Below are positions 31,039 to 52,537 of a DNA stretch of 64,000 nt, piece by piece; position 1 is the stretch's first letter, and the number at the start of each line of letters is the position of its first letter. Origin of the DNA: an uncultured Clostridium sp. (GTDB lineage Bacteria; Bacillota; Clostridia; TANB77; CAG-508). Location of the stretch: assembly GCA_947651825.1 (NCBI GenBank), contig CANTAQ010000001.1, forward strand, positions 20,598-84,597, in the 5' to 3' direction. The notes beneath the pieces are model-generated. The model was not told where the DNA came from and ran no database searches. It saw only the letters and a program-made list of their open reading frames with translations. The position numbers and the translations under genes were made by a program.

Positions 31039-31039
31039 G

Positions 31040-35440: not shown

Positions 35441-35482
35441 TCATCTCGAAAAATTACAATATATAAAGGAGGAAAAATAATA

Positions 35483-35626: not shown

Positions 35627-35657
35627 CTAAATTACAATTTGAAAGTGAGATGAAGTA

Positions 35658-36134: not shown

Positions 36135-36162
36135 ATTATAAGTTTTTAAGGAGAACAAAAAT

Positions 36163-36669: not shown

Positions 36670-36750
36670 ACGCAAAATTACAATTTTTTAAAATAATTAC
36701 TTGACTATGCCATTACAGGTTAGCTTACAATTATAACAGAGGTGGTTATA

Positions 36751-37623: not shown

Positions 37624-37662
37624 TATCTATTAAACAAATTACAATTTTGTAAGGAGGTATCT

Positions 37663-38511: not shown

Positions 38512-38662
38512 CACAAAATTACAATCTATTGATAGATTTCCAAAAATGTTAGGTTTAAGTGTCAATATTCCAGTATGAAATGGTAGAAATAAGTGCGATA
38601 AAATTCTACAATAATAATAGATATTGGTTAATATCAAATTATGTAGAAAGGAAGATGTAACA

Positions 38663-39037
38663 ATGAAATTTAACGAAAAACTAATTAAGTTAAGGAAGGC
38701 AGCAGGGTTATCTCAAGAAGAACTAGGAAACAGACTAGATGTAGCAAGGCAAACTGTTTCAAAGTGGGAACTCGGAGAAACAACACCAGAAATGGATAAA
38801 TTAGTAGAATTATCTAATTTATTCAATGTTAGTATGGATGAAATGGCAAAGGAAACAGAAATACCAGAAGTAATTGCAAGAGAATTAGACCATAAAAAAA
38901 TTGATTCAGTTTATAATGATGTTGGAACAGCAAAAAAAATCATAAAACATTATATAATAATTTTCGGAACAATAGCAATTATAATAGCAATAATACTGAT
39001 AAATTACTTTGTTAGAACAGCCTTTCATTTATGGTAA
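38663..39037 (+). CDS. XRE-family HTH regulator with a C-terminal transmembrane helix
   Basis: The HTH is LRKAAGLSQEELGNRLDVARQTVSKWE. The C-terminal TM is IIIFGTIAIIIAIILI. Confidence 0.65.
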   Translation: MKFNEKLIKLRKAAGLSQEELGNRLDVARQTVSKWELGETTPEMDKLVELSNLFNVSMDEMAKETEIPEVIARELDHKKIDSVYNDVGTAKKIIKHYIIIFGTIAIIIAIILINYFVRTAFHLW

Positions 39038-39061
39038 TTCAATAATTTAAGTAAAATTGTA

Positions 39062-39084
39062 AGGGAGTAAATTTACTCCCTTTT
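39062..39084 (+). terminator. Rho-independent terminator at the end of the gene array
   Basis: Perfect palindrome GGGAGTAAATTTACTCCC, followed by TTTT. Confidence 0.6.
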
Positions 39085-39209
39085 CAATTACCATAAATGC
39101 AGGTAAGAAGTTGAAAATTATTATCATTTTGTGTTATAATCATCTCGAGAAATTACAAGTTATAGAGAGGATTATCATAAATATTATATAAAAAATGAAA
39201 TATAACAAA

Positions 39210-39246
39210 AAGAGATATTAAAAACAAGTTAGTATCTCTTTTTTGT
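39210..39246 (+). terminator. Second rho-independent terminator
   Basis: AAGAGATA-N15-TATCTCTT, followed by TTTT. Confidence 0.5.
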
Positions 39247-39270
39247 GTCTAATTATATTTTAAATCTAAA

Positions 39271-39540
39271 TTTTCATTAAAAATTTTTTTAAAAATGTCC
39301 CATTTTTCATTTCTCAATCGCTGTTATAGATAAGAGAGAAAATCTCATATATAAAAACTTCAAAAAAAAATAAAATTTTTTCAAAAAAAGGTCAAGTTTT
39401 TGATTTTTCAATCGCTGTTATAAGTAGGAGATTTAAAATCACATATACAAAAAATAAAATTTTTTTGAAAAAAACATAACCTTTTTAACTTTTCAAACGC
39501 TGTTATATATGAGAGGGAAAATCTCGAAAAATTAAAGAAC
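39271..39540. repeat. Three tandem copies (about 90-bp period) of a composite unit, [A/T-tract palindrome] + [~57-bp conserved block TTTTCAATCGCTGTTATA..GAG..AAAATC.CATATA.AAAAA]; iteron-like
   Basis: Conserved blocks lie at 39303-39357, 39398-39454 and 39481-39537. The A/T palindromes (AAAAATTTTTTTAAAAA and similar) precede each block. Confidence 0.6.
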
Positions 39541-39870
39541 ATTGAAAATTGAATAGCAATTCATTAGATACAGTCCTTTGATTACTTGAGCTAGTAATAA
39601 AATCTATTACTTAAATATTAGCTTGCAACTAATAAGGCGAAGATAAGTGTAAGAGGAAAGAAACTTTTGTATAGTCATAGAACGAGCGTTAAAAGCGTCC
39701 CACGCAATGAGTACAAGCCTGTAAACAGGTAGGTGAAAATCCTATGAGATGTAAGCAAAACATCTGTCTAATGAATTATTGGAAAAGGTATAAAGAGAAA
39801 ATATACCAATAACTACCAAAGAAAATTGAATGGTAGTGTTTTTATCAATCACTTAAAGGAGATGGTAACA

Positions 39871-40035
39871 TTGATTGAGAAAGTTTTAACAAATAACAGT
39901 GAAAAAGTAGATAAAAAATTACTCCAATATACACTACAATTAAGAGCATTAAATCATTTAAAAAATAATAATAAAATAGATGAAATAGTATATAAATCAA
40001 CAAAAGCTAAAATAAATAAAAATTCACACATTTGA
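39871..40035 (+). CDS. Small K/N-rich protein (54 aa, TTG start) directly upstream of the large serine recombinase; candidate recombination-directionality/accessory factor
   Basis: GGAG sits 9 nt before the TTG. The longer ORF-track version starts at 39826. It loosely resembles the small ORF at 50256, which occupies the equivalent position. Confidence 0.3.
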   Translation: MIEKVLTNNSEKVDKKLLQYTLQLRALNHLKNNNKIDEIVYKSTKAKINKNSHI

Positions 40036-40093
40036 AAATAAGAAGATAAAAATATAATGTGTTAGTGGTTAAAAATTGGAAAAGGAGGTATGA

Positions 40094-41905
40094 ATGAATG
40101 TAACTTTAATAAAAAAAGTCGATGGACGAATAAATCGTACAACTGGTTTAAAGGTTACAACAGGATTAAGAGTAACAGCATATTGTAGAGTAAGTACAGA
40201 TGATGAAGACCAAAAAAACAGTTATGAATCGCAAAAAGCATATTACAAAGAAAAAATAACCTCTAATCCAGAATGGAGGTATATAGAAATTTATGCAGAT
40301 GAGGCAATTTCTGGTACATTAGACTATAAAAGAAATGACTTTATGAAAATGATACAGGACGCTTTAGATGATAAATTTGATATGATAATGACAAAGTCAA
40401 TATCAAGATTTGCAAGAAATACAGTAGACACACTAAAATATGTAAGAATGTTAAAAGAGCATAATGTAGCTGTATTTTTTGAAGAAGAAGGAATAAATAC
40501 ATTAGAAATGTCAGGAGAATTACTATTAACAATATTAAGTTCAGTAGCACAACAAGAAAGCGAAAATACATCTACACACGTAAAATTAGGACTAAAAATG
40601 AAAAAGGAACGAGGAGAACTAATTGGCTTTGGTGGTTGTTTAGGTTATACTTATAATCCAGAAGATAACACTTTAACTATAAATGAACAAGAGGCAGAAA
40701 TTGTTAGACTAATTTATGAAAAATATTTAGAGGGATTTGGAGCAGAAAGTATATCAAGACAATTAACTAAACTGGGAATAAAAACACCAAAGGGAAAAGC
40801 TGTATGGTGCGAAACAACAGTAAGAAAAATACTAAAAAATGAAAAATACAAAGGAGATGTACTACAAGGAAAAACATTTACAATAGACCCAATTAGTCAT
40901 AAAAGATTATCTAATATGGGAGAGGAAGATAAGTATTATATTTCTAATCATCACGAGGCAATAATAGACGAAGAAACATTTGAAAAAGTACAACAAATAA
41001 TGAAAGAAAGAAACGGAGGCAGGTCAGCAAGTAGGAAAGTTGGAAATGTAGGAAGAAAATACCCAATGAGTAATAGAATTAGATGTGGATTTTGTGGAAG
41101 TACCTTTACAAGAAGAAGTCTATATACAACAGCAAATCCAAAACCTGCTTGGCTATGTCAAACAGCAAGTAAACTAGGAAAAGAGTTTTGTAATAAATGT
41201 AAAATAATGAGAGCAGATGTATTAGAAAAGTCATTTGTAGACGCATATAAACTACTATGTAATGATAACAAATTATTAGTAGACAATTTCCTAAATAATA
41301 TATCAAGTCTAATGAAAAGCAATTCTCCAAAAGATAATATAAAGAAACTAGAAACACAAAAAGAAGAATTAAAAAATAAATGCAATAAGTTATTAGACTA
41401 TATGCTAGATGGTACAATTACAAAAGATATTTATACAGAAAAGAAAGATGAGTGTTTATTAAAAATAAAAGAAGTAGACACTAAAATAATGGAAATTCAA
41501 GCAAATATGGAAGATGACGACAGCATAGAAAGAGGCATAAAGAAATTAAAAAAAGTTTTTGACACTAACGCTATTATGGAAGAATTTGATATAGATGTCT
41601 TTGACACACTTGTTGACTATATTATTGTTGGAGGGTATAATGAAAGTGGCAGAGCAGACCCATATATGTTAAGATTTATTGTAAAAACTCATTCAAATAT
41701 GTTTAAGAAAGAAAAAGATGTTTCAAAAGAGCATATAGTGGAACGAAACAAATTAACACAAGATTATAGAAATATAGTGTTATTAGATTTTATAGACCAA
41801 CAAAATTTTATAGCTTACGATAGAGATAAAGACGGAAATTTTAAGAAAAAAGTAATAAAAAAGGTTAGAGTTAGGGTAGAATGTGATATGAGTAATGAAA
41901 ATTAG
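40094..41905 (+). CDS. Large serine recombinase (SpoIVCA/CisA-like), intact
   Basis: The resolvase domain is LRVTAYCRVSTDDEDQ...SISRFARN. Then come the recombinase domain, a zinc ribbon (CGFCGSTFTRR...C..C) and a coiled coil. RBS AAAGGAGG. Confidence 0.85.
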   Translation: MNVTLIKKVDGRINRTTGLKVTTGLRVTAYCRVSTDDEDQKNSYESQKAYYKEKITSNPEWRYIEIYADEAISGTLDYKRNDFMKMIQDALDDKFDMIMTKSISRFARNTVDTLKYVRMLKEHNVAVFFEEEGINTLEMSGELLLTILSSVAQQESENTSTHVKLGLKMKKERGELIGFGGCLGYTYNPEDNTLTINEQEAEIVRLIYEKYLEGFGAESISRQLTKLGIKTPKGKAVWCETTVRKILKNEKYKGDVLQGKTFTIDPISHKRLSNMGEEDKYYISNHHEAIIDEETFEKVQQIMKERNGGRSASRKVGNVGRKYPMSNRIRCGFCGSTFTRRSLYTTANPKPAWLCQTASKLGKEFCNKCKIMRADVLEKSFVDAYKLLCNDNKLLVDNFLNNISSLMKSNSPKDNIKKLETQKEELKNKCNKLLDYMLDGTITKDIYTEKKDECLLKIKEVDTKIMEIQANMEDDDSIERGIKKLKKVFDTNAIMEEFDIDVFDTLVDYIIVGGYNESGRADPYMLRFIVKTHSNMFKKEKDVSKEHIVERNKLTQDYRNIVLLDFIDQQNFIAYDRDKDGNFKKKVIKKVRVRVECDMSNEN

Positions 41906-41954
41906 TAACCTTACAACAACACTTACTCCATATTAAGACTACCTTACACTCAGA

Positions 41955-41984
41955 CCCACACCACACATGTGGAGTGTGTGGCAG
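41955..41984. other. GC-rich imperfect palindrome CCCACACCACACATGTGGAGTGTGTGGCAG 50 bp past the recombinase stop; candidate att core
   Basis: 7-bp arms CCACACA/TGTGTGG around CATGTGGAG. A related sequence, CCATGTGGAATGCGTGG, lies at the 3' end of the second recombinase gene (52274-52290). Confidence 0.35.
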
Positions 41985-42674
41985 TGCTACAACTAAAGCA
42001 AGACATGTAATACTTGATTTTGATATGGTTTCAGAGATTATAACTTTTGAAGAAAAAGGCAGATTTGGGAAAGAAAAACATCAAAATTTGAGTGTGAAAG
42101 TTAAAGTGGTTGCTTAAGTGGTAAGTGGAAACACATAAATGAAATTTTAGAAAATGGAGCAAAGTGTTTAAAATACTGGAAAAATTGCGATTGTATCTAC
42201 TGTAAGCATAACAGGTATAGGTTGTGTTGGTTAGTAGATATGAAACAAAGTTAGATGTTTCAACTATTAGAAAGAATTTATTAAAAGGAGTTATAGAGAA
42301 TCTTTATTAAATGGGTGTCAGTAGAGATATGTGCTGATACTTATTTTTTATAGGACGAAAATTTAATAAAATTCGGCTTATAAAAATTCATAGGACGAAA
42401 AAGTTAAAAAATTCGTCCTATAACATTTGCATACCAATTTTAATCTCCAATAAAAATAATATCAAGAGTAAAATAAACTCACTTCGTTCGCTCTTGACAT
42501 TATTTCCATTGGAGATTTTGTGGCAATTAAGCAAATGTAAGGATAAATATGTTTTGCAAATATTGGTAAAACACTATTAAAAATTGTTAATTTGTGATAT
42601 ATTATCTGTAGTTTTAAAGACATATTGAACTATTATAATTTTAGAAATAATTTTGAAAAGAGGAAATATATAAT

Positions 42675-43115
42675 ATGAAAATAAGAATAGCAAAAAAAGA
42701 AGATGTTGAGCAAGTATGGAATATAGGTAATAATGTATCTGAATTTAAGACAGCAGAAAATGTTGTTATATTTTGGCCAGAAGAAACATTGGAAAATTGC
42801 ATTAATAAAGATGATATTTTGTTTTATGTTGTAGAAATAGAAAATAAAATTATAGGTTTTTCAATAGTTAATTTAAATAAATCATTAGGAAAAGCAGAAA
42901 TAGAAAATATCTATGTATTACCAGAATATAGAAAAAATAAAATTGGTACATCAATATTAGATGAAATTTTGAAAGAATTAAAGGCTAGGAAGTATGATAA
43001 TGTAAATTGTTTAGTAGATGAAGCAACTGAAATTTATAAAAGATATGGATTTACAAAGGGAAAAGATTTTGCATGGATGGATATAGCATTATCAGATAAA
43101 TTTAAGAGAGGTTAA
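42675..43115 (+). CDS. GNAT family N-acetyltransferase
   Basis: IENIYVLPEYRKNKIGTSILDEI, with an acetyl-CoA fold. Confidence 0.75.
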   Translation: MKIRIAKKEDVEQVWNIGNNVSEFKTAENVVIFWPEETLENCINKDDILFYVVEIENKIIGFSIVNLNKSLGKAEIENIYVLPEYRKNKIGTSILDEILKELKARKYDNVNCLVDEATEIYKRYGFTKGKDFAWMDIALSDKFKRG

Positions 43116-43117
43116 AT

Positions 43118-43747
43118 ATGAATATTATAGAAATTTATAAAAAATATCATTTACCAGAAAGCTTACAAATGCACATGTTAAGAGTTGCAGCATGTAGTAA
43201 TTTAATAATAGATAACTGGAATGGAAAAGAAATAGATAAAGAAGCAATTATTAGAGTTTGTTTATTACATGATATGGGGAATATGGTAAAAATACCAGAA
43301 GATTTTTCAAAGTATGAAGAATTCATAAAGATAAGAAAAAAGTACTTTGATAAATATGGAACAAACGACCACGAAATCAATTTAGAAATAGGAAGACAAG
43401 AAGGATTAACAGAGAAAGAAATTATTATATTGGATGGAAAAAGGTCAAGAAAAAATGAAGAAACATTAGAATCAGACTCTTATGAAAGAAAAATTTGTGC
43501 ATACTGTGACCAAAGAGTAGCACCAGATGGAGTTGTAGGAATAAAAGAAAGATTAGAAGATGCAAAAATTAGATATAAAGATAAACCATTATCAGTATGG
43601 TCAAATGAAGAAAAAGCAAATCATTTAATAGAATGTTCTTTAGGTATAGAAAAGCAGATTATGAAACATTGCAACATAAAGCCAGAAGATATAAATGATA
43701 ATAGTATAAAAATATATATAGAAAAATTAAAAGAATATGAAATATAG
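43118..43747 (+). CDS. HD-domain phosphohydrolase
   Basis: H..H...LLHDMGN (HD motif). Confidence 0.7.
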   Translation: MNIIEIYKKYHLPESLQMHMLRVAACSNLIIDNWNGKEIDKEAIIRVCLLHDMGNMVKIPEDFSKYEEFIKIRKKYFDKYGTNDHEINLEIGRQEGLTEKEIIILDGKRSRKNEETLESDSYERKICAYCDQRVAPDGVVGIKERLEDAKIRYKDKPLSVWSNEEKANHLIECSLGIEKQIMKHCNIKPEDINDNSIKIYIEKLKEYEI

Positions 43748-43758
43748 TAGGAGGACTT

Positions 43759-44064
43759 ATGAATAAAAGAAAAGTTGTTACACTATGTGGTTCAGTAAAA
43801 TTTTATGATAAAATGCAAGAAATAAATGAAAAATTAGCATTAGAAAATGAATATGTAGTAATTGGACTAACACCTCGTGTTACCAATAGAAATTTTACAG
43901 AACATGACAAAGAATTATTAGGTGAATTACATAGAGCAAAAATAGATTTATCGGATGCAATATTTGTAGTAAATGTAGATGGATACATTGGGGAAAGCAC
44001 AAAAGGAGAAATAGAATATGCTAAACAAAGAGAAAAAGAAATAATGTATTTAGAAAGTATTTAG
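43759..44064 (+). CDS. Hypothetical small protein (101 aa), possibly a nucleoside 2-deoxyribosyltransferase-like fold
   Basis: VVTLCGSVKF...AIFVVNVDGYIGESTKGEIEYA. The pattern resembles the nucleoside 2-deoxyribosyltransferase-like superfamily. Weak. Confidence 0.45.
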   Translation: MNKRKVVTLCGSVKFYDKMQEINEKLALENEYVVIGLTPRVTNRNFTEHDKELLGELHRAKIDLSDAIFVVNVDGYIGESTKGEIEYAKQREKEIMYLESI

Positions 44065-44075
44065 GGAGGAATTAT

Positions 44076-44858
44076 ATGATAGATATTGCAAGGGCAAAAA
44101 ATGCTTTTAAAGATTTTTTAGAAGAATACAAAGATAAAAGCGACTTAGGATTTGAATTAAAAATAGTACATACTTATCATGTTGCAGAAAATGCGAAGAA
44201 AATAGCACAAGAATTAAATTTAAGTAAAGAAGATATAGAACTAGCTGAATTAATAGGAATACTACATGATATAGGACGATTTGAAGAATTAAAGATTACA
44301 AAGGAATTAAATAGTGTTAAATTTGATCATGCAGGACATGGCTCCAAAATGTTATTTGAAAAAGGTATGATTAGAAAATTTATAGAAGATAGTCAGTATG
44401 ATAATATAATAAAAAAAGCAATAGAAAATCACAGCAGATTAGAAATTGAAGAGAATTTAGATGAAAGAACTTTATTACATTCTAAAATAATAAGAGATGC
44501 AGATAAAATAGATAATTATAGAGTAAAGAAAGATGAAAAAATAGAAGCAATATTTCCTAAAAGAGTAAATAAGATAGAAGATATGGAAGAATCAAAGTTA
44601 TCAGACAAAGTTTATAATACTATTTTGGATAAAAAATGTGTTGACATACATGATAGAGTAACACCATTAGATTTTTGGGTTTGTATATTAGCTTTTACAT
44701 TTGACTTAAATTTTGATGTATCTTATAAAATAGTAAAAGAAAATGACTATATAAATGTGCTAGTAGATAAATTTGAATATAAAGATGAAGAAACTAAAAA
44801 TAGAATGGAAAAAGTAAGAAAAATTATAAATGAATATATAAATGAAAAAGTAAATTGA
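44076..44858 (+). CDS. HD-domain protein (paralog of 59783-60562)
   Basis: IGILHDIGRFEE, HAGHGSKMLFE, and IRDADKIDN. About 50% identical to the HD protein at 59783. Confidence 0.7.
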   Translation: MIDIARAKNAFKDFLEEYKDKSDLGFELKIVHTYHVAENAKKIAQELNLSKEDIELAELIGILHDIGRFEELKITKELNSVKFDHAGHGSKMLFEKGMIRKFIEDSQYDNIIKKAIENHSRLEIEENLDERTLLHSKIIRDADKIDNYRVKKDEKIEAIFPKRVNKIEDMEESKLSDKVYNTILDKKCVDIHDRVTPLDFWVCILAFTFDLNFDVSYKIVKENDYINVLVDKFEYKDEETKNRMEKVRKIINEYINEKVN

Positions 44859-44889
44859 AGTTTGTAGAGAAATTATAAATGAAGGAGTA

Positions 44890-45489
44890 ATGATGAAAAT
44901 ATTGTTATCGAGTAATAAAGAAATTATAAAAGAATATATTGTTAAAAATTCTAAAATTGGATTTATTCCTACTGCTTCAGAATTGGATAATGATAGATGG
45001 TACATGGAAAAAGATAGAGAAGATCTTATTAAAATGAAATTTAATGTAATAGATATTGACATTTCAAAGGAAAGTAAAGAAAAAATTATAGAAAAGTTTA
45101 ATAGTGTAGATGTAATATTTGTTGCTGGTGGAAATTGTTTCTATTTATTACAACAGTTAAAAATAAAAGATGTTTTGCAAGAGTTAATAGAGTTTGCGAA
45201 TAATAAAATATATATAGGTTCAAGTGCTGGTTCATGTATTACTTGTCCATCTATTGACTATGCTGAAAAATTAGATGACATATCACAAGCACCACTATTA
45301 AGTAATTGTAATGCAATGAATTTAGTAGATTTTTATATTTTACCTCATTATAACAGCAAAGAAAAATATACTAAATTAGCTGATGAAATTGAAAGCAGTT
45401 ATAACAATTATAAATTTATAAAATTATCTAATGAACAAGCTATTATAGTAGATAATATGAACAACTATAAAGTAGTTGAAACAAAATAG
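44890..45489 (+). CDS. Peptidase E-like (S51) / class-I glutamine amidotransferase-like protein
   Basis: VIFVAGGNCFYLL, and a GSSAGS nucleophile region. Confidence 0.6.
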   Translation: MMKILLSSNKEIIKEYIVKNSKIGFIPTASELDNDRWYMEKDREDLIKMKFNVIDIDISKESKEKIIEKFNSVDVIFVAGGNCFYLLQQLKIKDVLQELIEFANNKIYIGSSAGSCITCPSIDYAEKLDDISQAPLLSNCNAMNLVDFYILPHYNSKEKYTKLADEIESSYNNYKFIKLSNEQAIIVDNMNNYKVVETK

Positions 45490-45577
45490 AAAATTATAAA
45501 ATTAGAACAAGTAGAGAAATCTAATAATAATGAAAAAAGTAAGCTATTAGAATTATAGGAGAGGAATAGGTGTTAGT

Positions 45578-46021
45578 ATGGAATATTCTTTTAGAAATTG
45601 CACATTAGATGATTTTGACTTTTTATTTGAATTAAAAAAGCAGAACTTTAAATGGTATGTTGATAAAATTTGGGGTTGGAAAGATAATGAACAAAAAGAA
45701 AGACTAAAACAAGACTTAGAAGAGCATTTGCAACATAAACGAATTATATTAGTGGATAATAAAGGGGTTGGAGTATATGCAGTATATATAACAGAAGATG
45801 GGAAATTCTTTATAAATGAAATAAGTATATTAAAAGAATATCAAAATAAAGGAATTGGAAGAAAAATTTTAGAAGAACAACTAAAAGAAAATCAATCAAA
45901 AGGAATTAGAACAATTCTACAAGTATTTAAAGATAATCCAGCTAAAAATCTATATGAAAAATTAGGTTTCAAAGTATATGGAGAAACTGAAACACATTAT
46001 CAAATGGAAAATGTAAAATAA
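45578..46021 (+). CDS. GNAT family N-acetyltransferase
   Basis: ILKEYQNKGIGRKILEE (Q/RxxGxG/A). Confidence 0.75.
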   Translation: MEYSFRNCTLDDFDFLFELKKQNFKWYVDKIWGWKDNEQKERLKQDLEEHLQHKRIILVDNKGVGVYAVYITEDGKFFINEISILKEYQNKGIGRKILEEQLKENQSKGIRTILQVFKDNPAKNLYEKLGFKVYGETETHYQMENVK

Positions 46022-46294
46022 ATATTAATATAAACAAGAGGTGGAAAAAATGCAGTTATTTTCAAAAGAAGTAAAAGGATTGGAGAAAATAAGGAAAATC
46101 ATAAATCAATTTATAAACAACAAGATTTTTAAATAAATTTTAAAATAAAAAAACTATAGCTCATATATTTCTATATAAGCTACATTCTAAATCATAACTG
46201 CTTACCGAAGTAAGCCTTCTCGGTCATCTAATAAAAGTATAATAGAAATTTTAATAAAAATCAATAATTTTTAACAAATTTTATATAAATACTT

Positions 46295-46340
46295 GCCGGA
46301 AACTCTCGTAAATGATACAATATTTACGAGAGTTTCCGGC
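46295..46340. promoter_or_regulatory. Perfect 19-bp inverted repeat GCCGGAAACTCTCGTAAAT-N7-ATTTACGAGAGTTTCCGGC spanning a TTGCCG-N17-TACAAT promoter; candidate AbiEi autoregulatory operator
   Basis: Seen directly. It lies immediately upstream of the RBS AAAGGAGAG of the AbiEi gene. Confidence 0.5.
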
Positions 46341-46355
46341 AAAGGAGAGAAAAGA

Positions 46356-46949
46356 ATGGAAAATATAGATATTATAAAAAAGTTATTAAAAAAGAATAAC
46401 GGAATAATAACAACAAAAGAGGTAGAAGACCTAGGAATTAATAGCAAAATTTTAACTAGAATGATTGAAAAAGGAATAATAGAAAGAGTTTCAAGAGGAC
46501 TTTATATAAGTATAGACACATTAGAAGATAAATATTTTATTACACAGGCTATTTGTAAAAAAGGAATATTCTCTCATGAAACAGCTTTATATTTTCACGA
46601 TTTATGTGATAGGACACCTATAAAATATCAATTAACAATACCAAGTTATTATAATAATGTATTGATTAAAGATAAAGATTATCAATTTTTCTATTTAAGA
46701 GATGAACTATATGAAATAGGTATGACAGCGATGAAGACACCTTATGGAAATAAAGTAAAAGTTTACGATTTAGAAAGAACGATATGCGATATTATACGAA
46801 ATAAAAAGAAAATTGAGATTGCATTATTTACGGATGCTATGAAAAGATATGCTGAAAGAAAAGATAGAAATTCAATAAAGTTACATAAATATGCAAAACT
46901 ATTTAATATAGAAGATGAAGTAAGAAAATACTTGGAGGTGTTGCTATGA
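46356..46949 (+). CDS. AbiEi-family antitoxin (type IV TA) with an N-terminal wHTH
   Basis: MENIDIIKKLLKKNNGIITTKEVEDLGINSKILTRMIEKGIIERVSRGLYI is the AbiEi_4 pattern. It overlaps the next gene by 4 bp (ATGA). Confidence 0.7.
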   Translation: MENIDIIKKLLKKNNGIITTKEVEDLGINSKILTRMIEKGIIERVSRGLYISIDTLEDKYFITQAICKKGIFSHETALYFHDLCDRTPIKYQLTIPSYYNNVLIKDKDYQFFYLRDELYEIGMTAMKTPYGNKVKVYDLERTICDIIRNKKKIEIALFTDAMKRYAERKDRNSIKLHKYAKLFNIEDEVRKYLEVLL

Positions 46950-47791
46950 TAGCTAAGAATAGAGCACAATTAAAAGCATGGATAAAAAACATGTCAGCAA
47001 AAGTTGATGTAAATGAAAATATCATTTTACAAAACTATATGCTAGAGAGATTATTAGAAAGAATTTCAGTATCAAATTATAAATATAAATTTGTATTAAA
47101 AGGTGGTATGTTAATAACAGCTATAGTTGGAATAGATATGAGAAATACACTAGATATGGATGCAACAATAAAAGGTTTTGATTTAGAAAAAGATAACCTT
47201 GAAAATATATTAAACGAAATATTTAGTATAGACTTAAATGATGGTGTAACTTTTGAATTTAGAAACATAAAAGAAATAAGACAAGAAGATGAATATGGAG
47301 GATATAGAGTATCATTAGATGCAAAATTTGATAAATTAGTTGTACCTATGAAATTGGACATAACAACAGGAGATGTAATTATTCCTAAAGAAGTTAATTA
47401 TAAATTTGATTTAATGTTTGAAGATCGCTCTATAGAAATACTCGCATATAATATGGAAACAGTAATAGCGGATAAATTTGAAACAATCATATCTAGAAAT
47501 ATTGATACAACAAGAGCAAGAGATTTTTATGATATTTATATACTTTGGACTACACAACAGCAAAATTTTGATAAAGAATTGCTAGGACAAGCTATTGCAA
47601 AGAAATTCGAATATAGAGAGTCTATAGATAATTTGAAGAATATTGATGAGATAGTGGAAGTTATAAAAGAAAGTGATGCATTAAAAGAACATTGGAAGAA
47701 TTATCAGACCAAGTTTAGTTATGCTGAAGATATTAGTTATGAAGATGCGATGAGGGTGATAGAAGAAATAACAAGTGAATTAAGAAAATAA
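46946..47791 (+). CDS. AbiEii/AbiGii-family nucleotidyltransferase toxin (DUF1814)
   Basis: FVLKGGMLI...DMDATIKG is the NTase fold of the AbiEii family. Its pairing and overlap with AbiEi support the call. Confidence 0.75.
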   Translation: MIAKNRAQLKAWIKNMSAKVDVNENIILQNYMLERLLERISVSNYKYKFVLKGGMLITAIVGIDMRNTLDMDATIKGFDLEKDNLENILNEIFSIDLNDGVTFEFRNIKEIRQEDEYGGYRVSLDAKFDKLVVPMKLDITTGDVIIPKEVNYKFDLMFEDRSIEILAYNMETVIADKFETIISRNIDTTRARDFYDIYILWTTQQQNFDKELLGQAIAKKFEYRESIDNLKNIDEIVEVIKESDALKEHWKNYQTKFSYAEDISYEDAMRVIEEITSELRK

Positions 47792-47846
47792 ATTTCATAA
47801 CTGAATATATAGAATAATTAAATATATATGAAAATGGGAGCAAAAT

Positions 47847-49700
47847 ATGGAAGATTCTAATAGCAAATTAAAAAGAATAAAAAGATTTTTTTTAAATAAA
47901 AATTATAAAGTAAAAGAATATTTAAAATGGTATAAAATATATGATAATAAAAGACATTTTTTAGTTAAGCAAAAAATCATGAATTTACTAATGATTATTT
48001 TTATATTAAGTATAGGTATATTAAGTATATTTATATTTTTTTATGCTATTAATGATTACAAAATTGAAAATATAATAGAACTGAATAAAAAATTTAATAT
48101 TGAATCAAAGGATATATTATTAGCTCAAATTAGTAATACATTGATAATAATTTCAGTAATATCTTTATTATCTGGCTTATCTGAAAGTTATATATTAGGA
48201 AAAAAACATATTAATGTTATTTTTCCTAATAATAGTTTTCTATCATTGCTAAAAATTTTTATAATTTTAGTACTCCTACTATTTGTAAATACTATCGAAT
48301 GCCTAAAAGATAGTAGTCAAGTACTAATATTAATAAATTTCTTGATTTCTCTTATACTTATATTTTATATGTGTATTAAAATGATTTGGTTCTATACTCA
48401 TAAAAATTGGTTTGGGAATAATTTATTATGTATGTATTTAGAAAAACAAAAGAAACATATAAAAAAAGCTGTTCCTTTAAATAGTCATGAATGCAAAGAT
48501 GTTATAGAATTAAAAAATCAAACATTGATATTAATACAGAAGAACGATAATGATTATAATTATAATATTCACAACATAATGAATCTTATAGATTTAACCT
48601 TATTTAATAACAAGAGAATTCTTCAAGAATATTATACAGAAATGATTTTTAGAAGTGATTTGATTAGTGCTATACATGAAATTGTTTCTCATTTGATCCT
48701 ATATAATAAACATATCGAGGCTGCAAATATATATTGTAAGCTTTATACAATGTTTGCTTATTATAAATTTGTACCTGTTCATGATGATTATAAAATGCAA
48801 AATGTTGCTAATTTGATAGACAAAATAAAATACATTCAAACTGAAAGTCAAGAAAAAGAATATATAAATCTTATATGGAGAATTATTAAATTAGATATGT
48901 ATTTAATTTTTCTATATGAAAATGTTATAGATTTTAGCTATTGTAGATTATATAAATATGATTCTATATATATGTTTACTAGTAATAGATATTTGGAATC
49001 TGTATATACATGTGTTATTGAAAATAAGAATTTAACTAAAAATGAAAAGTACAGAGTACTGGAAGAATTATATGATAATATAAGATTAATGGAACATGGG
49101 GAAAAATTTCCAGATAGGGATATTAATGATTTCCTACAAAGAAAAAACATACATAAAGAAGAAATATTCATACCATATCTTATAAAGGGTGAGCCAATAA
49201 TTATAATGTTTTTGAAAATGATTGAAAACAATGATATTAGAGCAATAAAAATATTTAGAACAATGAATTTATCAAAAGAATTTATGCATTATATAATTAT
49301 GAGTATTACACTATCGGTAATCACTATAATAAGCAAAAATAACACTAGAGAATATGTTGATGATTTAAATATAGACATTGATAAAATAAATTATCTTTTC
49401 AAAGAAACGAAATTTCATAAAATAACTTTGGATAGTGATGAATTAAATAATTTATATAAATTATTTAATGAAAACTATTTTTATAAGAAGAAAAGAGCTT
49501 ATTCATTAAGACCTAGATTAGAAACAACAGAAAATGCATTAAAAAATTATTTTTATTTCTTGTATAAAGATATAGATAAAGTAGAGGAATTTTATAAATT
49601 AGAAAATTGTAGAAACTTTATTCCAGATGAAAAATTACAAGAGAGTATTAAAAACCTAAGTATTGTAAATAAAATTACATCAAAATCTAATAATAATTAG
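47847..49700 (+). CDS. Hypothetical 617-aa protein with an N-terminal multi-TM region and a large Y/N/K-rich soluble domain
   Basis: RBS GGGAG; three or four TM helices in the first 200 aa; no known motif. Confidence 0.5.
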   Translation: MEDSNSKLKRIKRFFLNKNYKVKEYLKWYKIYDNKRHFLVKQKIMNLLMIIFILSIGILSIFIFFYAINDYKIENIIELNKKFNIESKDILLAQISNTLIIISVISLLSGLSESYILGKKHINVIFPNNSFLSLLKIFIILVLLLFVNTIECLKDSSQVLILINFLISLILIFYMCIKMIWFYTHKNWFGNNLLCMYLEKQKKHIKKAVPLNSHECKDVIELKNQTLILIQKNDNDYNYNIHNIMNLIDLTLFNNKRILQEYYTEMIFRSDLISAIHEIVSHLILYNKHIEAANIYCKLYTMFAYYKFVPVHDDYKMQNVANLIDKIKYIQTESQEKEYINLIWRIIKLDMYLIFLYENVIDFSYCRLYKYDSIYMFTSNRYLESVYTCVIENKNLTKNEKYRVLEELYDNIRLMEHGEKFPDRDINDFLQRKNIHKEEIFIPYLIKGEPIIIMFLKMIENNDIRAIKIFRTMNLSKEFMHYIIMSITLSVITIISKNNTREYVDDLNIDIDKINYLFKETKFHKITLDSDELNNLYKLFNENYFYKKKRAYSLRPRLETTENALKNYFYFLYKDIDKVEEFYKLENCRNFIPDEKLQESIKNLSIVNKITSKSNNN

Positions 49701-49865
49701 AAAAAATACATAAATACTAAAGGCAGGAAAGCGAGTGTTCACACATCGCCTACATACATTGAATGGCAAGCCTTCAAGAGTTAATAAAAGAACAAAAATT
49801 TTAAGCAGATTTTATGTGAAAATTCACCGAATGAACCACTAGAAAATACCCATTAGAGTGCGAAA

Positions 49866-50064
49866 GTTCACTAAATGTACTAAATTTTATAAAAATATAG
49901 CAATTAGTTCACCAAGTGTACTTGAATTTAATTGAATTTTAAAATAAAGTACACCAAGTGAACTAAAGATTTAAAAAAATTAGTAAAAAGTACACTAAGT
50001 GAACCCACAAATAAGGATTATAAAATAAATTTTTAAAATTTTTATACAAGTACACTTAGTGTAC
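49866..50064. repeat. Five phased copies (41-42 bp spacing) of a 15-bp imperfect palindrome GTWCACYAAGTGWAC
   Basis: GTTCACTAAATGTAC at 49866, GTTCACCAAGTGTAC at 49908, GTACACCAAGTGAAC at 49949, GTACACTAAGTGAAC at 49990, and GTACACTTAGTGTAC at 50050. Confidence 0.5.
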
Positions 50065-50181
50065 TTACCTAAAAATCAATACTTTATAAATTTTAATGAG
50101 ACAAAAGGGAAAAAAATGGGAATTGAACTTTATAGAACAGCATAATATAATTGTATTATCAAAAAATGTAAAACATTTAAG

Positions 50182-50210
50182 TCAGTCGAAGCTAGCCGAC
50201 TGGCTTTTTC
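50182..50210 (+). terminator. Rho-independent terminator
   Basis: TCAGTCG-AAGCTAGC-CGACTGG stem-loop, followed by CTTTTT. Confidence 0.5.
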
Positions 50211-50255
50211 TGTTGCCTTTTTTGAAATTTAAATTATTCAAGGAGGAGAATTTTT

Positions 50256-50441
50256 ATGTTATATGAAATCAAATTTGATAATACGAAAAACATCAAACTA
50301 AATGAAAATATCTTTAAATGCAGTATAAAAATAGCAATATTAAACAAAACATTTAATGCAGGACTAATCAAAGAAAAGAGATATTTAGAACTAAAACAAA
50401 ATATCTTACAAGAATATAATTTAACTCACATAGGTATTTGA
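50256..50441 (+). CDS. Small K/N-rich protein (61 aa) upstream of the second large serine recombinase
   Basis: RBS AAGGAGGAG. Its position and composition parallel the ORF at 39871. The shared pattern is [LI]x[LI]xxLNxxxNxxx[IL]xE. Confidence 0.35.
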   Translation: MLYEIKFDNTKNIKLNENIFKCSIKIAILNKTFNAGLIKEKRYLELKQNILQEYNLTHIGI

Positions 50442-50521
50442 AAATTTAATATTTTGATGTATAATAAGCACATAAAGATTCTCTAAACTTGAGAAAGAGA
50501 GGTTTTAGATAGTGTTGAAAA

Positions 50522-52303
50522 ATGACTGAAACGAATTTTTCATACAGTATCTTAATGCCGAAAGAATGGAGGTTAAATTTGAAAGTACAAGTTATAGAGA
50601 AGAAAAAAGGTCGAATTAATAGAACAACAGGAGAAGAAATAAAAGGAAATTTAAGAGTATGTGCCTATGCAAGAGTAAGTACAGAAAAAGAAGAACAAAT
50701 AAACAGTTATAATTCTCAATTAAAGTATTATGAAGAAAAGATAAAAGCAAATAGTGATTGGAAATATGTTGGCATTTATGCAGATGAAGGTATAACAGGA
50801 ACTTTAGACTATAAGAGAGATGGCTTTATGAAAATGATGCAAGATGCTACAAATAACAAATTTGATATGATAATTACAAAATCAATATCAAGATTTGGAA
50901 GGAATACAGTTGATACCTTAAAATATGTAAGAGGGTTAAAAGAAAAAGGAATTGCTATTTACTTTGAAGAAGAAAGAATAAATACTTTAGAAATATCTGG
51001 AGAAATCATGCTAACAGTATTAAGTGCAATGGCACAACAAGAAAGCGAAAATATATCTTCTCATGTAAAACTAGGATTACAAATGAAACAAAAAAGAGGA
51101 GAACTAATTGGATATAATGGTTGTTTAGGATATGTATATGATAAAGATACAAAAGAAATATCAATCAATTATGAAGAAGCAGAAATTGTAAGATATATCT
51201 TTGAAAGATACTGCCAAGGAGTAGGCTGTACAACAATAGCTAAAGAACTAACCAATATGAAATATAAAACTCCAACAGGTAAAAAGAAATGGCACGAATC
51301 AACAATACGAGGAATCTTAAAAAATGAAAAATACAAAGGAGATGTCTTACAAGGAAAAACATATACAACAGATCCAATATCTCATAGAAGAGTAGTCAAT
51401 ATGGGAGAAGAAAATCAATATTACATACAAGAACATCATGAGCCAATAATCTCTGAAAGAATGTTTAATCAAGCACAAGAAATTCTTCAAAAACGAGGAG
51501 GAGTACGAGGCTCTGGGAGGAGAAAAGGCAATTTTAGTAGAAAATATCCTTTTAGTAGCAGACTATATTGTGGCTTCTGTGGAAGTTTATTAACAAGAAG
51601 AAATTGGCATTCTGGAACTAAAAATAGTATTACAGTTTGGCATTGTATGGAATTTGTAAAACATGGAAAAGAAAATTGCCCACATTGTAAAGCTATGAAA
51701 GAAAGCATTATAGAAGAAGCATTTACAGAAGGCTATAAACTACTATGTAATAACAATAAAGAGTTAATCCAAACATTCTTAAACGAAATGGAAGAAATGA
51801 TACAAGAAGAAAGTAATGAAAGTTCTATTAAAAGACTAGAGGAAGAAAAACAAATTTTAAAAGAAAAGATAGACAAATTAATTGATTTAAACTTAAATGG
51901 AACAATAACATTAGAAACGTTACAAGAAAAGAAAGCAAAACTACAAAACAAAATAAATAGCATAGAAAAAGAACAAGAGCATTTACAAATAGAATTAGAA
52001 GATTCAATGAGTTTAAATCAAGGATTAAACAAGTTTAAAACATTGTTTAAAGACAATAAAATCATGCCAGAATTTGATAAAGATGTTTTTGAATTAATGA
52101 TAGAAAAAGTTATAATAGGAGAAAAGGACAGTAAAGGGAAAGCTAATCCAAGAGTAATAACATTTATCCTAAAATCTGAAAATGAAATTAAATGCAAAGA
52201 TGACAAAAAAGAAGACAAAAATCAACAGTCATCATACGAGATAAGCAAAAACCATCTACAGCCTATGTGTGAGCCATGTGGAATGCGTGGTTCTGTTAAC
52301 TAA
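50522..52303 (+). CDS. Large serine recombinase, paralog of 40094-41905 (true start possibly TTG at 50579)
   Basis: GRINRTTGEEIKGNLRVCAYARVSTEKEEQ...SISRFGRN. Recombinase domain and zinc ribbon CGFCGSLLTRR. About 65% identical to the first copy. GGAGG sits 5 nt before TTG 50579. Confidence 0.85.
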   Translation: MTETNFSYSILMPKEWRLNLKVQVIEKKKGRINRTTGEEIKGNLRVCAYARVSTEKEEQINSYNSQLKYYEEKIKANSDWKYVGIYADEGITGTLDYKRDGFMKMMQDATNNKFDMIITKSISRFGRNTVDTLKYVRGLKEKGIAIYFEEERINTLEISGEIMLTVLSAMAQQESENISSHVKLGLQMKQKRGELIGYNGCLGYVYDKDTKEISINYEEAEIVRYIFERYCQGVGCTTIAKELTNMKYKTPTGKKKWHESTIRGILKNEKYKGDVLQGKTYTTDPISHRRVVNMGEENQYYIQEHHEPIISERMFNQAQEILQKRGGVRGSGRRKGNFSRKYPFSSRLYCGFCGSLLTRRNWHSGTKNSITVWHCMEFVKHGKENCPHCKAMKESIIEEAFTEGYKLLCNNNKELIQTFLNEMEEMIQEESNESSIKRLEEEKQILKEKIDKLIDLNLNGTITLETLQEKKAKLQNKINSIEKEQEHLQIELEDSMSLNQGLNKFKTLFKDNKIMPEFDKDVFELMIEKVIIGEKDSKGKANPRVITFILKSENEIKCKDDKKEDKNQQSSYEISKNHLQPMCEPCGMRGSVN

Positions 52304-52537
52304 AGTACATAAAGAATAGTGTGAAAATGCTTGATAAATATGCTACTTAGTTTGGCAGGCGCATCATTAAATGCAAGAAGGGTAATCGATATCTTACTTG
52401 AATGTTTCGGACCTTCGTATAATCCTATAAAGATTTTGGAAAGAGAACAATATTGGAAAAGTTACTTGGACACTATAAAGAATCAGTATAATGATAACTG
52501 ATTGAATTTTATTTATTAATTTGTAGGAGGTGTTGCC

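What the first reader, a model, noticed from the sequence alone, without database searches (positions are those of the whole stretch)
39826..52303. Two paralogous large serine recombinase modules in tandem (small ORF + recombinase + shared CATGTGGARTGYGTGG motif) bracketing a defence/accessory island
Recombinases at 40094-41905 and 50522-52303 are about 65% identical and co-oriented. Each is preceded by a small K/N-rich ORF (39871 and 50256). Each has the motif CATGTGGA(G/A)TG(T/C)GTGG at or just past its 3' end (41955-41984 non-coding; 52274-52290 inside the last codons). Conserved sequence at the recombinase-proximal boundary is what attL/attR cores of serine-recombinase elements look like. 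The arrangement suggests two related integrative elements inserted in tandem or nested at the same site, or an internal invertible or excisable segment. The 8.6-kb segment between them carries an AbiE toxin-antitoxin pair, HD hydrolases, GNATs and a 617-aa membrane protein, so it is a candidate anti-phage defence cargo.
Basis: partly seen in the sequence, partly recalled or inferred. Interest (0 to 1): 0.65.

Follow-up and report, generated by a model that had tools for sequence, protein, structure and literature searches.

The report
Two mobile elements stacked in rumA
Two separate mobile DNA elements, each with its own large serine recombinase, sit one behind the other in the end of the ribosomal-RNA methyltransferase gene rumA; this arrangement is already known from streptococci, but one of the elements carries an apparently undescribed array of swappable single-gene cassettes.

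Summary
The sequence features are real. The two recombinases are 53% identical, not 65%. The motif CATGTGGARTGYGTGG encodes H-V-E-C-V, the conserved C-terminus of RumA (23S rRNA U1939 methyltransferase). rumA lies at 24476-25855 and holds a third, diverged copy at 25796.

A near-isogenic strain (L002) has intact rumA followed directly by the gene at 52538. Its flanks differ from the window at 1 of 9,746 nt and 0 of 11,064 nt. So 26,479 bp are an insertion, with crossover dinucleotide CA at 25796, 41966 and 52275.

- **Element A** (16,170 bp) is a mobilizable element carrying TnpV, NikA, a relaxase, cargo and rec A.
- **Element B** (10,309 bp) carries GNATs, HD proteins, AbiE, a membrane protein and rec B.

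Each element's left end supplies a substitute RumA C-terminus. In B-type and C-type elements a second reading frame there also encodes the recombinase's C-terminal tail. Related loci show type-matched ends within elements, free combinations at the junctions between elements, and the reverse B-A order.

rumA-targeting serine-recombinase elements, including tandem pairs, are published for streptococci, so this is a new member of a known kind.

One thing appears new: A's cargo is a 12-unit gene-cassette array joined at AATTACAA. The same cassettes reassort among many clostridial mobile elements.

The parts
24476..25855 (+). rumA/rlmD (23S rRNA U1939 methyltransferase), now a hybrid gene. Native sequence runs to 25797. 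The last 19 codons (HVEVVSVLGLKEEKKPKNQ*) come from the left end of element A.
   Evidence: TIGR00479 rumA scores 438 bits against a cutoff of 183.55. Pfam tRNA_U5-meth_tr. Translation. In empty-site strains the gene is 454 aa and ends HVECVVLLTKVHKE*.
25796..25797 (+). Site 1: crossover dinucleotide CA, the junction between rumA and element A (attL of A).
   Evidence: The only mismatch between L002 and the window over 9,746 nt of left flank is at 25798, the first base after CA.
25798..41967 (+). Element A, 16,170 bp: an integrative mobilizable element with rec A at its right end.
   Evidence: The same left end (P'_A) and right end (P_A) bound A-type elements in L023 and L024. A's left end follows other recombinases in L030 and L088 at 99.5-100% identity.
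26853..29945 (+). Backbone of A: TnpV (26853-27236), oriT-like inverted repeat (27396-27425), NikA-like (27454-27777), MobA/VirD2-type relaxase (27734-29119), ParB_N protein (29121-29945).
   Evidence: Pfam. The oriT-like region is conserved in L107.
31598..39150 (+). Cargo of A: an array of 12 single-gene cassettes. They encode an alpha/beta hydrolase, a small membrane peptide, a metallo-beta-lactamase-fold protein, an esterase, a PEBP protein, a 313-aa protein, a 47-aa protein, a 158-aa protein, a GNAT, a MerR regulator, a metallophosphoesterase and an HTH protein. Each junction carries AATTACAA (once AATTATAA).
   Evidence: P about 1e-23 for 12 of 12 junctions. Homology breakpoints between loci fall on the motif.
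39151..41967 (+). Conserved rec A module: terminator hairpin (39205-39245), three ~90-nt direct repeats (39289-39530), sub-threshold pemK-like RNA (39655-39747), small ORF sA (39871-40035), rec A (40094-41905), and the P_A arm ending ...CCCACACCACA-CA.
   Evidence: It is 98.6-99.9% identical in more than 10 contigs that differ on both sides, with a sharp left edge at 39146-39153 and a right edge at the CA. Rfam.
40094..41905 (+). Rec A, a 603-aa large serine recombinase. It is complete in the integrated state: its own C-terminal tail and stop codon lie 60 nt before the crossover.
   Evidence: Pfam. A profile of the tails encoded by element left ends matches rec A residues 562-602 (E 1.2e-3). 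The exact protein is in 127 blocks of the collection, and 100%-identical matches (full length or as far as the contig runs) are in 9 species-representative MAGs.
41966..42117 (+). Site 2: junction of A's right arm and B's left arm, with crossover CA at 41966-41967. Two reading frames overlap here. Frame 1 (41966-42010) reads HVECVAVLQLKQDM*, a substitute RumA C-terminus. Frame 2 (41968-42117) reads CGVCGSATTKARHVILDFDMVSEIITFEEKGRFGKEKHQNLSVKVKVVA*, the tail that rec B would gain once B is excised as a circle.
41968..52276 (+). Element B, 10,309 bp: an integrative element with rec B at its right end. No relaxase and no copy of A's oriT were found.
   Evidence: The pairing of this left-end type with B-type right arms is seen in 11 distinct elements. 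A rec B-type element precedes element A in L088. for the missing oriT copy.
42675..49700 (+). Cargo of B: GNAT (42675), HD (43118), 101-aa protein (43759), HD (44076), peptidase S51 (44890), GNAT (45578), AbiEi (46293), AbiEii (46946), and a 617-aa protein with 4 N-terminal transmembrane segments (47847).
   Evidence: Pfam, PADLOC, hydropathy.
50256..50441 (+). Small ORF sB (61 aa), conserved upstream of B-type and C-type recombinases.
   Evidence: tblastn finds it at 83-98% identity in B-type modules and 33-46% in C-type modules, always just upstream of the recombinase.
50522..52303 (+). Rec B, a large serine recombinase in its integrated, truncated form (593 aa, ending ...CEPCGMRGSVN*). The crossover lies 27 nt before its stop codon. 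The predicted excised form is 634 aa.
52275..52319 (+). Site 3: junction of B's right arm and the native rumA 3' end (HVECVVLLTKVHKE*), with crossover CA at 52275-52276.
   Evidence: From 52275 the window is identical to L002 over 11,064 nt. Translation.

Best explanation
Notation: P and P' are the right and left arms of an element's attachment site. B and B' are the two halves of the chromosomal site in rumA.

Window 25798-52276 is two independent integrative elements lying head to tail in the 3' end of rumA/rlmD. Each was inserted by its own large serine recombinase at a CA dinucleotide. That CA is the first two bases of the His codon in the conserved RumA motif H-V-E-C-V.

- **Element A (16.2 kb)** is a mobilizable element with TnpV, an oriT-like site, NikA, a relaxase, a cassette array and the rec A module.
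- **Element B (10.3 kb)** carries accessory genes, an AbiE pair and rec B.

The shared 16-mer is the right half of the att core. It is conserved because each element's left arm must mimic the rumA 3' end: it has to restore a RumA C-terminus in one reading frame. In B-type and C-type elements a second frame of the same arm also encodes the recombinase's last 49-57 residues.

For rec B, integration therefore swaps the 3' ends of rumA and the recombinase gene. The result is a 593-aa truncated rec B when integrated next to native rumA sequence, and a 634-aa protein after excision or when another element follows. Rec A has taken the tail inside its own gene and is complete in either state.

Every inserted element recreates an attB-like site, so further elements can stack into tandem arrays.

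Shown: the insertion, its exact boundaries, the three sites, the dual coding, type-matched ends and variable order. Inferred: CA as the cleaved dinucleotide, the order of arrival, current activity, and a role for the small upstream ORFs as directionality or regulatory factors.
For: **Empty site.**
- L002 matches window 16059-25804 with one mismatch (at 25798) and 52275-63338 with none.
- About 17 similar contigs carry intact rumA next to the 52538 gene.

**Target identity.**
- The gene is rumA by TIGR00479, well above the curated cutoff.
- All three sites read HVE(C/V)V in the rumA frame.

**Crossover.**
- In 20+ contigs with rec A, everything left of the CA is identical.
- The sequence diverges from the next base into different RumA-tail-encoding arms.

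**Independent elements.**
- Left-arm and right-arm types are matched within elements: P'_1 with P_B 11 times, P'_2 with P_C 7 times, P'_A with P_A 3 times, and one exception.
- Junctions between elements combine freely.
- L088 has the order B-like then A. L030 has another recombinase type followed by A.

**Dual coding.**
- 51 distinct left-arm-encoded tails of 49-57 aa are conserved in the recombinase frame.
- Their profile matches rec A's own C-terminus (E 1.2e-3).

**Generality.**
- 72 of 92 related recombinase copies have such a site 75-340 nt after the conserved body of the gene.

**Literature.**
- Streptococcal elements with a single serine integrase insert in rumA and exchange the 3' parts of rumA and the integrase gene, changing the frame (PMC4701971).
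- Tandem vanG + ICE-r elements sit in rumA, each with a serine recombinase at its 3' end (PMC4120198).
- Tandem accretion of such elements is reviewed in PMC5704250.
Against: - There is no direct evidence of excision: no circle junction or restored attB from the same sample.
- The exact rec B protein is not on record elsewhere, so current activity of B is untested. Its integrated form lacks the conserved tail.
- No strain was found with A alone or B alone at this locus, so the order of insertion is unknown. Arrival of A+B as one pre-formed composite cannot be excluded.
- B has no recognisable transfer function.
- The crossover dinucleotide is inferred from homology breakpoints, not from cleavage data.
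Confidence: 0.9

Rival explanations
1. The region is one composite element whose two paralogous recombinases act together, as CcrA/CcrB or the recombinase triplets of some conjugative elements do, to move the whole 26.5-kb block or the 8.6-kb island between them.
For: The two genes are paralogous and co-oriented. No strain with only A or only B at this locus was recovered. Transfer of whole composites after accretion is documented for other elements (PMC5704250).
Against: Rec A occurs with at least 8 different downstream elements, and rec B-type recombinases occur without A. The order is reversed in L088. Ends are type-matched per element. Rec A sits at the end of a complete relaxase-bearing element that also exists alone between two sites (L023, L024).
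Confidence: 0.05
2. The segment between the two motif copies is a regulated excisable or invertible switch, a developmental or phase-variable rearrangement like skin or SPbeta, rather than a horizontally acquired element.
For: Large serine recombinases do drive such rearrangements. A third recombinase in the window interrupts a Mn-catalase/CotJC-like gene.
Against: The sites are direct repeats, so inversion is impossible. rumA is kept open by each left arm, so no excision is needed to restore it. The elements are 100% conserved across different species-level MAGs and absent from near-isogenic strains, which indicates horizontal mobility.
Confidence: 0.03
3. The shared motif is only a conserved recombinase C-terminal coding remnant with no role as a recombination site.
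For: The motif does lie in rec B's last codons. The sequence after 41966 does encode a recombinase-type tail.
Against: Homology with the empty site begins and ends exactly at the motif. A third copy sits in rumA. In the rumA frame it encodes the conserved HVECV.
Confidence: 0.02

Closest known systems
Streptococcal ICEs/IMEs with a single serine integrase that target rumA (e.g. ICE_Spy2096_rumA, IME_SpnAP200_rumA; Ambroset et al. 2016, PMC4701971; Guedon et al. 2017, PMC5704250)
   Same: The target is rumA and the recombinase is a single large serine recombinase at the right end. attR lies in or next to the integrase gene. Integration exchanges the 3' ends of rumA and the integrase gene in different reading frames. 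Short direct repeats flank the element.
   Different: The hosts here are uncultured low-GC gut Clostridia. The recombinases were not compared directly with the streptococcal ones. The crossover is CA inside the HVECV codons. Rec A is a variant that keeps its tail inside the gene. B has no transfer module.
Tandem vanG + ICE-r insertions in rumA of Streptococcus agalactiae and S. anginosus (Srinivasan et al. 2014, PMC4120198)
   Same: Two different elements lie in tandem in rumA, each with a serine recombinase gene at its 3' end and a repeated dinucleotide at each junction.
   Different: The repeated dinucleotide there is GA rather than CA. Those are vancomycin-resistance conjugative elements of about 45 kb. 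Dual coding of the left arms was not described.
CTn5 (Tn1549 family) of Clostridioides difficile, which moved into rumA (CD3393) in 630-delta-erm (as cited in PMC4701971)
   Same: It is a clostridial element with a serine integrase that uses rumA as its primary site.
   Different: CTn5 is a full conjugative element. No sequence comparison was made here.
SCC/SCCmec composite islands at rlmH (orfX) in staphylococci (from my own knowledge, not tested here)
   Same: Large serine recombinases insert at the 3' end of an rRNA methyltransferase gene. Every junction repeats the gene's last codons. Elements stack in tandem, including units that lack a recombinase. NCBIfam's best matches for rec A and rec B are CcrC, CcrB and XisF.
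   Different: The scores are far below the Ccr family cutoffs (153 against 900 bits). The target gene is rumA, not rlmH.
Site-specific accretion of ICESt1/ICESt3 with CIMEs (Pavlovic 2004 and Bellanger 2011, as cited in PMC5704250)
   Same: [quoted passage not shown]
   Different: Those elements use tyrosine integrases and the 3' end of fda.
Integrons (comparison for the cassette array inside element A only)
   Same: A promoter is followed by an array of promoterless, co-oriented single-gene units. The same units reassort between arrays exactly at a short core. An IS110-family element is inserted in a junction, recalling IS1111-attC elements (that parallel is from my own knowledge).
   Different: There is no IntI-type integrase next to the array. 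The junctions have no attC-like folded site. The conserved core is only 7-8 nt (AATTACAA or ATAGTAA). The hosts are clostridial ICEs and IMEs.

Membership tests
rumA-targeting serine-integrase integrative elements (Ambroset 2016) | Integrase is a large serine recombinase (Resolvase + Recombinase + zinc-ribbon domains) | tested here: met
   Pfam matches for both proteins.
rumA-targeting serine-integrase integrative elements (Ambroset 2016) | [quoted passage not shown] | tested here: met
   TIGR00479 above cutoff. Empty-site strain differs by the 26,479-bp insertion only.
rumA-targeting serine-integrase integrative elements (Ambroset 2016) | attR inside the integrase gene, with reciprocal exchange of the 3' ends of rumA and the integrase gene in different frames | tested here: met
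   Met for rec B: the crossover is 27 nt before its stop, and the protein is 593 aa integrated against 634 aa predicted when excised. Rec A is a variant, with its stop 60 nt before the crossover.
rumA-targeting serine-integrase integrative elements (Ambroset 2016) | Short direct repeats (2-21 bp) at the two ends | tested here: met
   CA at all three sites. There are 9 bp of near-identity, CA(T/C)GTGGAA, at the outer junctions.
rumA-targeting serine-integrase integrative elements (Ambroset 2016) | Excision to a circular form and re-integration | not testable with these tools
   Only assembled contigs are available. The predicted attP junctions are given.
Integrative mobilizable element (IME) | Own relaxase and oriT but no type IV secretion system | tested here: met
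   For element A: NikA-like protein, PF03432 relaxase and an oriT-like inverted repeat, with no T4SS genes. For element B this is not met: no relaxase and no copy of A's oriT.
SCC (staphylococcal cassette chromosome) | Ccr-type recombinase above the family threshold, and insertion in rlmH/orfX | tested here: not met
   CcrC 153 bits and CcrB 127-131 bits against a cutoff of 900. The target is rumA.
Tn4451/Tn4453 family | TnpX-type recombinase with the DUF4368 C-terminal domain | tested here: not met
   Rec A and rec B lack DUF4368. Only TnpV is shared. The frameshifted recombinase at 1233-2865 does carry DUF4368, but it belongs to another element.
Prophage | Phage structural or lysis genes, and close relatives in viral collections | tested here: not met
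   There are no phage families among the ORFs. The best viral-contig relatives are 49% identical or less. The cassette-array DNA (31560-39160) has no hit in the phage records.
Integron (for the cassette array 31598-39150) | Adjacent IntI tyrosine integrase, an attI site, and attC sites that fold into imperfect hairpins | tested here: not met
   No tyrosine recombinase in element A. The junctions show no common hairpin (mean z -0.55).

The most novel reading that the evidence does not exclude
The cargo of element A (31598-39150) may be one instance of an undescribed gene-cassette exchange system in gut clostridial mobile elements.

- The units are promoterless single genes, co-oriented, sitting behind a shared promoter module that ends in ...ATAGTAA|.
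- They are joined at a 7-8-nt core (AATTACAA|).
- They reassort exactly at that core among IMEs and T4SS-bearing ICEs. The identical PEBP cassette is listed in 712 blocks of the collection and has 5 different right-hand neighbours.
- There are no attC-like hairpins and no dedicated integrase next to the arrays, so the enzyme is unidentified.

If this is true site-specific recombination, it would be an integron analogue with a new kind of minimal site. A second novel reading concerns the rumA arrays themselves: they may behave as a recombinase-driven stacking platform in which each element's recombinase is completed in trans by the left arm of its downstream neighbour.
Probability: 0.4. Interest if true: 0.8.

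Novelty: new member of a known kind. Interest (0 to 1): 0.45.

Why it matters
- **Scope of a known mechanism.** rumA as a stacking site for serine-recombinase elements was described in streptococci and C. difficile. It now also appears in a large group of uncultured, low-GC gut Clostridia. Tandem stacks of two elements are common there, and some loci show four junction sites.
- **Recent spread.** A 100%-identical recombinase is shared across at least nine species-level genomes, which points to very recent horizontal transfer.
- **A testable prediction.** The left arms encode a RumA C-terminus in one frame, and in B-type and C-type elements the recombinase tail in another. So recombinase length, and perhaps activity, should depend on what lies downstream.
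- **Useful parts.** These are natural attP/attB pairs with defined CA crossovers, which could serve as orthogonal integrase tools.
- **Annotation.** The 8.6-kb 'island' should be assigned to element B, not treated as an island between two recombinases.
- **A possible new route of gene flow.** If the AATTACAA cassette arrays prove to be a recombination system, they would be a new way for accessory genes to move among Firmicutes mobile elements.

Tried and rejected
1. **Split host gene or recombinase pseudogene after 41966.** I first read this sequence as one or the other. The HVECV frame and the empty site showed that it is element B's left arm.
They are unrelated. They belong to a TnpX-like recombinase abutting a Mn-catalase fragment.
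3. **BLASTP between rec A's tail and the tail encoded after 41966.** It found nothing. A profile built from 51 such tails was needed to show the relationship.
4. **Rfam at gathering thresholds.** Nothing in the window. Only a sub-threshold pemK-motif hit upstream of rec A.
5. **tRNA target.** None present.
6. **Plasmid and phage collections.** Only distant recombinase hits on plasmids. No hit at all for the cassette array.
7. **Cassette junctions.**
   - Integron-type attC folding is rejected.
   - A relaxase nick-site origin is not supported, because the oriT cores (GGGG..CCCC + AACCCC) look nothing like AATTACAA.
   - The motif is not a general feature of ribosome-binding regions in the host: chromosomal junctions lack it.
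   - Literature searches for the motif or for clostridial cassette arrays found nothing relevant.
8. **Exact-protein look-up of rec B.** Not on record.
9. **Structure prediction of the small ORFs.** Not attempted. The alignments hold sequences from outside the window, which the tool refuses.

Full report
**Notation.** P and P' are the right and left arms of an element's attachment site. B and B' are the two halves of the chromosomal site in rumA. attL and attR are the left and right junctions of an integrated element.

**1. The observation**

The window is low-GC (about 26%) and nearly all genes are on the + strand.

- ORFs 40094-41905 (rec A, 603 aa) and 50522-52303 (rec B, 593 aa) both have the Resolvase, Recombinase and Zn_ribbon_recom domains of large serine recombinases.
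- They are 53% identical over 537 residues, not about 65%. Their C-terminal tails do not align.
- CATGTGGARTGYGTGG occurs exactly twice, at 41966 and 52275. About 0.03 matches are expected by chance.
- Small ORFs precede both genes.
- The interval between the recombinases encodes two GNATs, two HD proteins, an S51 peptidase and AbiEi/AbiEii (confirmed with PADLOC). It also encodes a 617-aa protein with four N-terminal hydrophobic segments.

**2. What the motif is**

Read as CAT GTG GAR TGY GTG, the motif encodes H-V-E-C-V.

- A gene at 24476-25855 is rumA/rlmD (TIGR00479, 438 bits against a cutoff of 183.55). It ends ...VDMFPYTSHVEVVSVLGLKEEKKPKNQ*. So a third, diverged copy of the site lies at 25796.
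- In the same frame, site 2 reads HVECVAVLQLKQDM* and site 3 reads HVECVVLLTKVHKE*.
- From my own recollection of RumA biochemistry, the Glu of this motif is the catalytic base. I did not test this.

**3. Empty site and exact boundaries**

I looked up contigs that encode exactly the protein of 52538-53338.

- This returned strains in which a 454-aa rumA is followed directly by that gene (L001-L003, plus 14 similar places).
- L002 matches window 16059-25804 with a single mismatch, and 52275-63338 with none over 11,064 nt.
- The one mismatch is at 25798, the first base after a CA shared by all sites.
- In more than 20 contigs carrying rec A, the sequence left of this CA is invariant (...CCCACACCACA). 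It diverges from the very next base.
- The window therefore carries a 26,479-bp insertion, with crossover dinucleotide CA at 25796-7, 41966-7 and 52275-6. Element A is 16,170 bp and element B is 10,309 bp.
- Other conspecific contigs (L004, L006) have different DNA to the left of the same breakpoint. L005 repeats the rec B junction.

**4. Two independent elements, not a bracketed island**

- Element A contains TnpV, an oriT-like inverted repeat, a NikA-like protein, a MobA/VirD2-type relaxase, a ParB_N protein and cargo. It ends with rec A.
- Element B contains the GNAT, HD and AbiE cargo and ends with rec B. It has no relaxase and no copy of A's oriT.
- The exact rec A protein is in 127 blocks of the collection. 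Matches that are 100% identical, over the full length or as far as the contig runs, lie in 9 species-representative MAGs of uncultured gut Clostridia.
- Rec A's 2.85-kb module is 98.6-99.9% conserved, while the DNA on both sides varies.
- Across 77 related loci, 72 of 92 recombinase copies have a RumA-tail site 75-340 nt after the conserved body of the gene. Two or more sites per locus are common, and some loci show four.
- Within elements, left-arm and right-arm types are matched: P'_1 with P_B 11 times, P'_2 with P_C 7 times, P'_A with P_A 3 times, and one exception. Junctions between elements combine freely.
- L088 has the reverse order, a B-like element followed by A. L030 has a third recombinase type followed by A at 100% identity.
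- Some segments bounded by sites lack a recombinase, as CIMEs do (L010, L086).

**5. Dual coding and exchange of 3' ends**

- In the recombinase frame, the left arms of the two commonest types (P'_1 and P'_2) encode conserved tails of 49-57 residues, in two main families.
- Joining rec B at the CA to B's own left arm (site 2) gives a 634-aa protein. It ends ...CEP|CGVCGSATTKARHVILDFDMVSEIITFEEKGRFGKEKHQNLSVKVKVVA*.
- Next to native rumA sequence, rec B stops after ...CGMRGSVN*.
- A profile of 51 such tails matches rec A residues 562-602 (E 1.2e-3). That was the only other hit among 472 six-frame ORFs of the window.
- So rec A carries the tail internally and is complete when integrated. The left arm of A-type elements gives only a short basic peptide in that frame.
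- This is the reciprocal exchange of rumA and integrase 3' ends, with a change of frame, reported for streptococcal elements (PMC4701971).
- Tandem vanG + ICE-r elements in rumA, each with a serine recombinase at its 3' end, are also published (PMC4120198). Accretion and CIMEs are reviewed in PMC5704250.

**6. The small ORFs**

- The two are not similar by BLASTP.
- Each is conserved just upstream of its own recombinase lineage. The sA family reaches down to 43% identity in distant A-like modules. The sB family is 83-98% identical in B-type modules and 33-46% in C-type modules.
- A profile-profile comparison gives a colinear match (probability 62%, E 7e-5).
- The 'small ORF + recombinase' module is therefore probably ancestral. 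Its role, as a directionality factor or a regulator, is only inferred.

**7. Rival explanations**

- **A cooperating recombinase pair or single composite element.** This is contradicted by the independent distribution of A and B and by their type-matched ends.
- **An invertible or developmental switch.** This is contradicted by the direct orientation of the sites, by the intact rumA frame, and by horizontal spread.
- **A mere C-terminal coding remnant.** This is contradicted by the empty site.
- **A prophage.** This is contradicted by the gene content and by viral-contig relatives of 49% identity or less.

**8. Side discovery: a cassette array**

- The cargo of A from 31598 to 39150 is 12 single-gene units.
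- Eleven junctions have AATTACAA (once AATTATAA) 0-14 nt after the stop codon. An extended Shine-Dalgarno sequence follows it, and where a cassette gene follows directly its start is 24-29 nt downstream. The twelfth has the motif 114 nt after the stop (P about 1e-23).
- The array begins after a promoter, at ...CAGATAGTAA|. It ends at AATTACAA|GTTATAGAGAGG, the first bases of the rec A module. A terminator follows.
- Homology between loci breaks exactly at the motif. The same left cassette is found with different right cassettes, and the reverse.
- L024 is an A-type element with no array.
- The identical PEBP cassette is listed in 712 blocks of the collection. It sits between nikA and the relaxase gene of a T4SS-bearing ICE, after VirB4 in the same ICE type, and in other IMEs, with five different right-hand neighbours.
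- Arrays in ICE backbones start with a shared promoter module ending ATAGTAA|.
- An IS110-family element is inserted precisely in one junction.
- The junctions have no common hairpin. The oriT cores do not resemble the motif. Host chromosomal junctions lack it. I found no description in the searchable literature.
- The mechanism is open. It could be site-specific recombination by an unidentified enzyme, or microhomology-mediated exchange combined with selection.

**9. Verdict**

The finding is real and now has a precise explanation: two serine-recombinase elements stacked at rumA. That explanation belongs to a published kind of system. The most novel material is the cassette array inside element A, together with the way a downstream neighbour's left arm completes an upstream recombinase gene.

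Noticed in passing
window 31598-39158 (also L007, L012, L020, L023, L029, L102-L111): An array of 12 promoterless single-gene cassettes joined at AATTACAA. An alternative left core, ATAGTAA, occurs at array starts. Identical cassettes reassort exactly at this core among IMEs and T4SS-bearing ICEs of gut Clostridia. There is no adjacent integrase and no attC-like hairpin. I found no description in the searched literature.
   Followed up: partly
L103:10800-12420: An IS110-family element (DEDD_Tnp_IS110 + Transposase_20) is inserted exactly inside a cassette junction (AAATTACA|IS|AATTTGAAAG). This suggests that it targets the junction motif.
   Followed up: partly
window 39655-39747: A sub-threshold match to the Rfam pemK RNA motif (RF02913): 26.7 bits against a gathering score of 34.8, E 0.003-0.017. 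It lies in the conserved leader upstream of the small ORF and rec A. The noncoding stretch just upstream of and partly overlapping it (window 39537-39721) is still 72% conserved in the diverged module of L030.
   Followed up: partly
window 39289-39530: Three direct repeats of about 90 nt (...TTTTCAATCGCTGTTATAGATAAGAGAG...). They lie between the array terminator and the rec A leader and are present in every rec A module. Each resembles the right half of a cassette junction. Their function is unknown.
   Followed up: no
window 1233-3094: A third large serine recombinase, frameshifted into two ORFs (1233-2072 and 2053-2865). It carries DUF4368 like TnpX and is 30% identical to rec A. It directly abuts the 3' fragment of a Mn-catalase/CotJC-like gene (2870-3094). 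This looks like the right end of another element that interrupts that gene upstream of the window.
   Followed up: partly
window 49860-50070: Four copies of an operator-like palindrome (GTACACYWAGTGWAC) lie upstream of the small ORF and rec B. They probably bind a regulator of the rec B module.
   Followed up: no
window 42347-42426 and 42416-42601: Two 40-nt repeats with hairpin potential (ATAGGACGAAAA...TTCGTCCTAT) are followed by a portable promoter-like segment. That segment recurs at 90-92% identity in front of different cargo genes in other elements (L008-L010, L012, L016).
   Followed up: no
L010:2854-6865, L086:11697-14955, L062/L065:6126: Segments bounded by two rumA-type att sites have no recombinase of their own. 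They may be decayed elements that could be mobilised in cis, like CIMEs.
   Followed up: partly
L007:11510-21449: The element downstream of rec A in this contig carries a Piwi-domain (prokaryotic Argonaute-like) protein and a DpnII-MboI domain protein. It also carries a SLFN/AlbA_2 protein and a PemK toxin. So some stacked elements at rumA look like true defence islands.
   Followed up: no
window 15118-17731 (- strand): A P-type cation ATPase is split into a 614-aa ORF and a separate 201-aa C-terminal ORF. The 614-aa product is called the same way in the empty-site strains. It is either a shared frameshift or a natural split.
   Followed up: no
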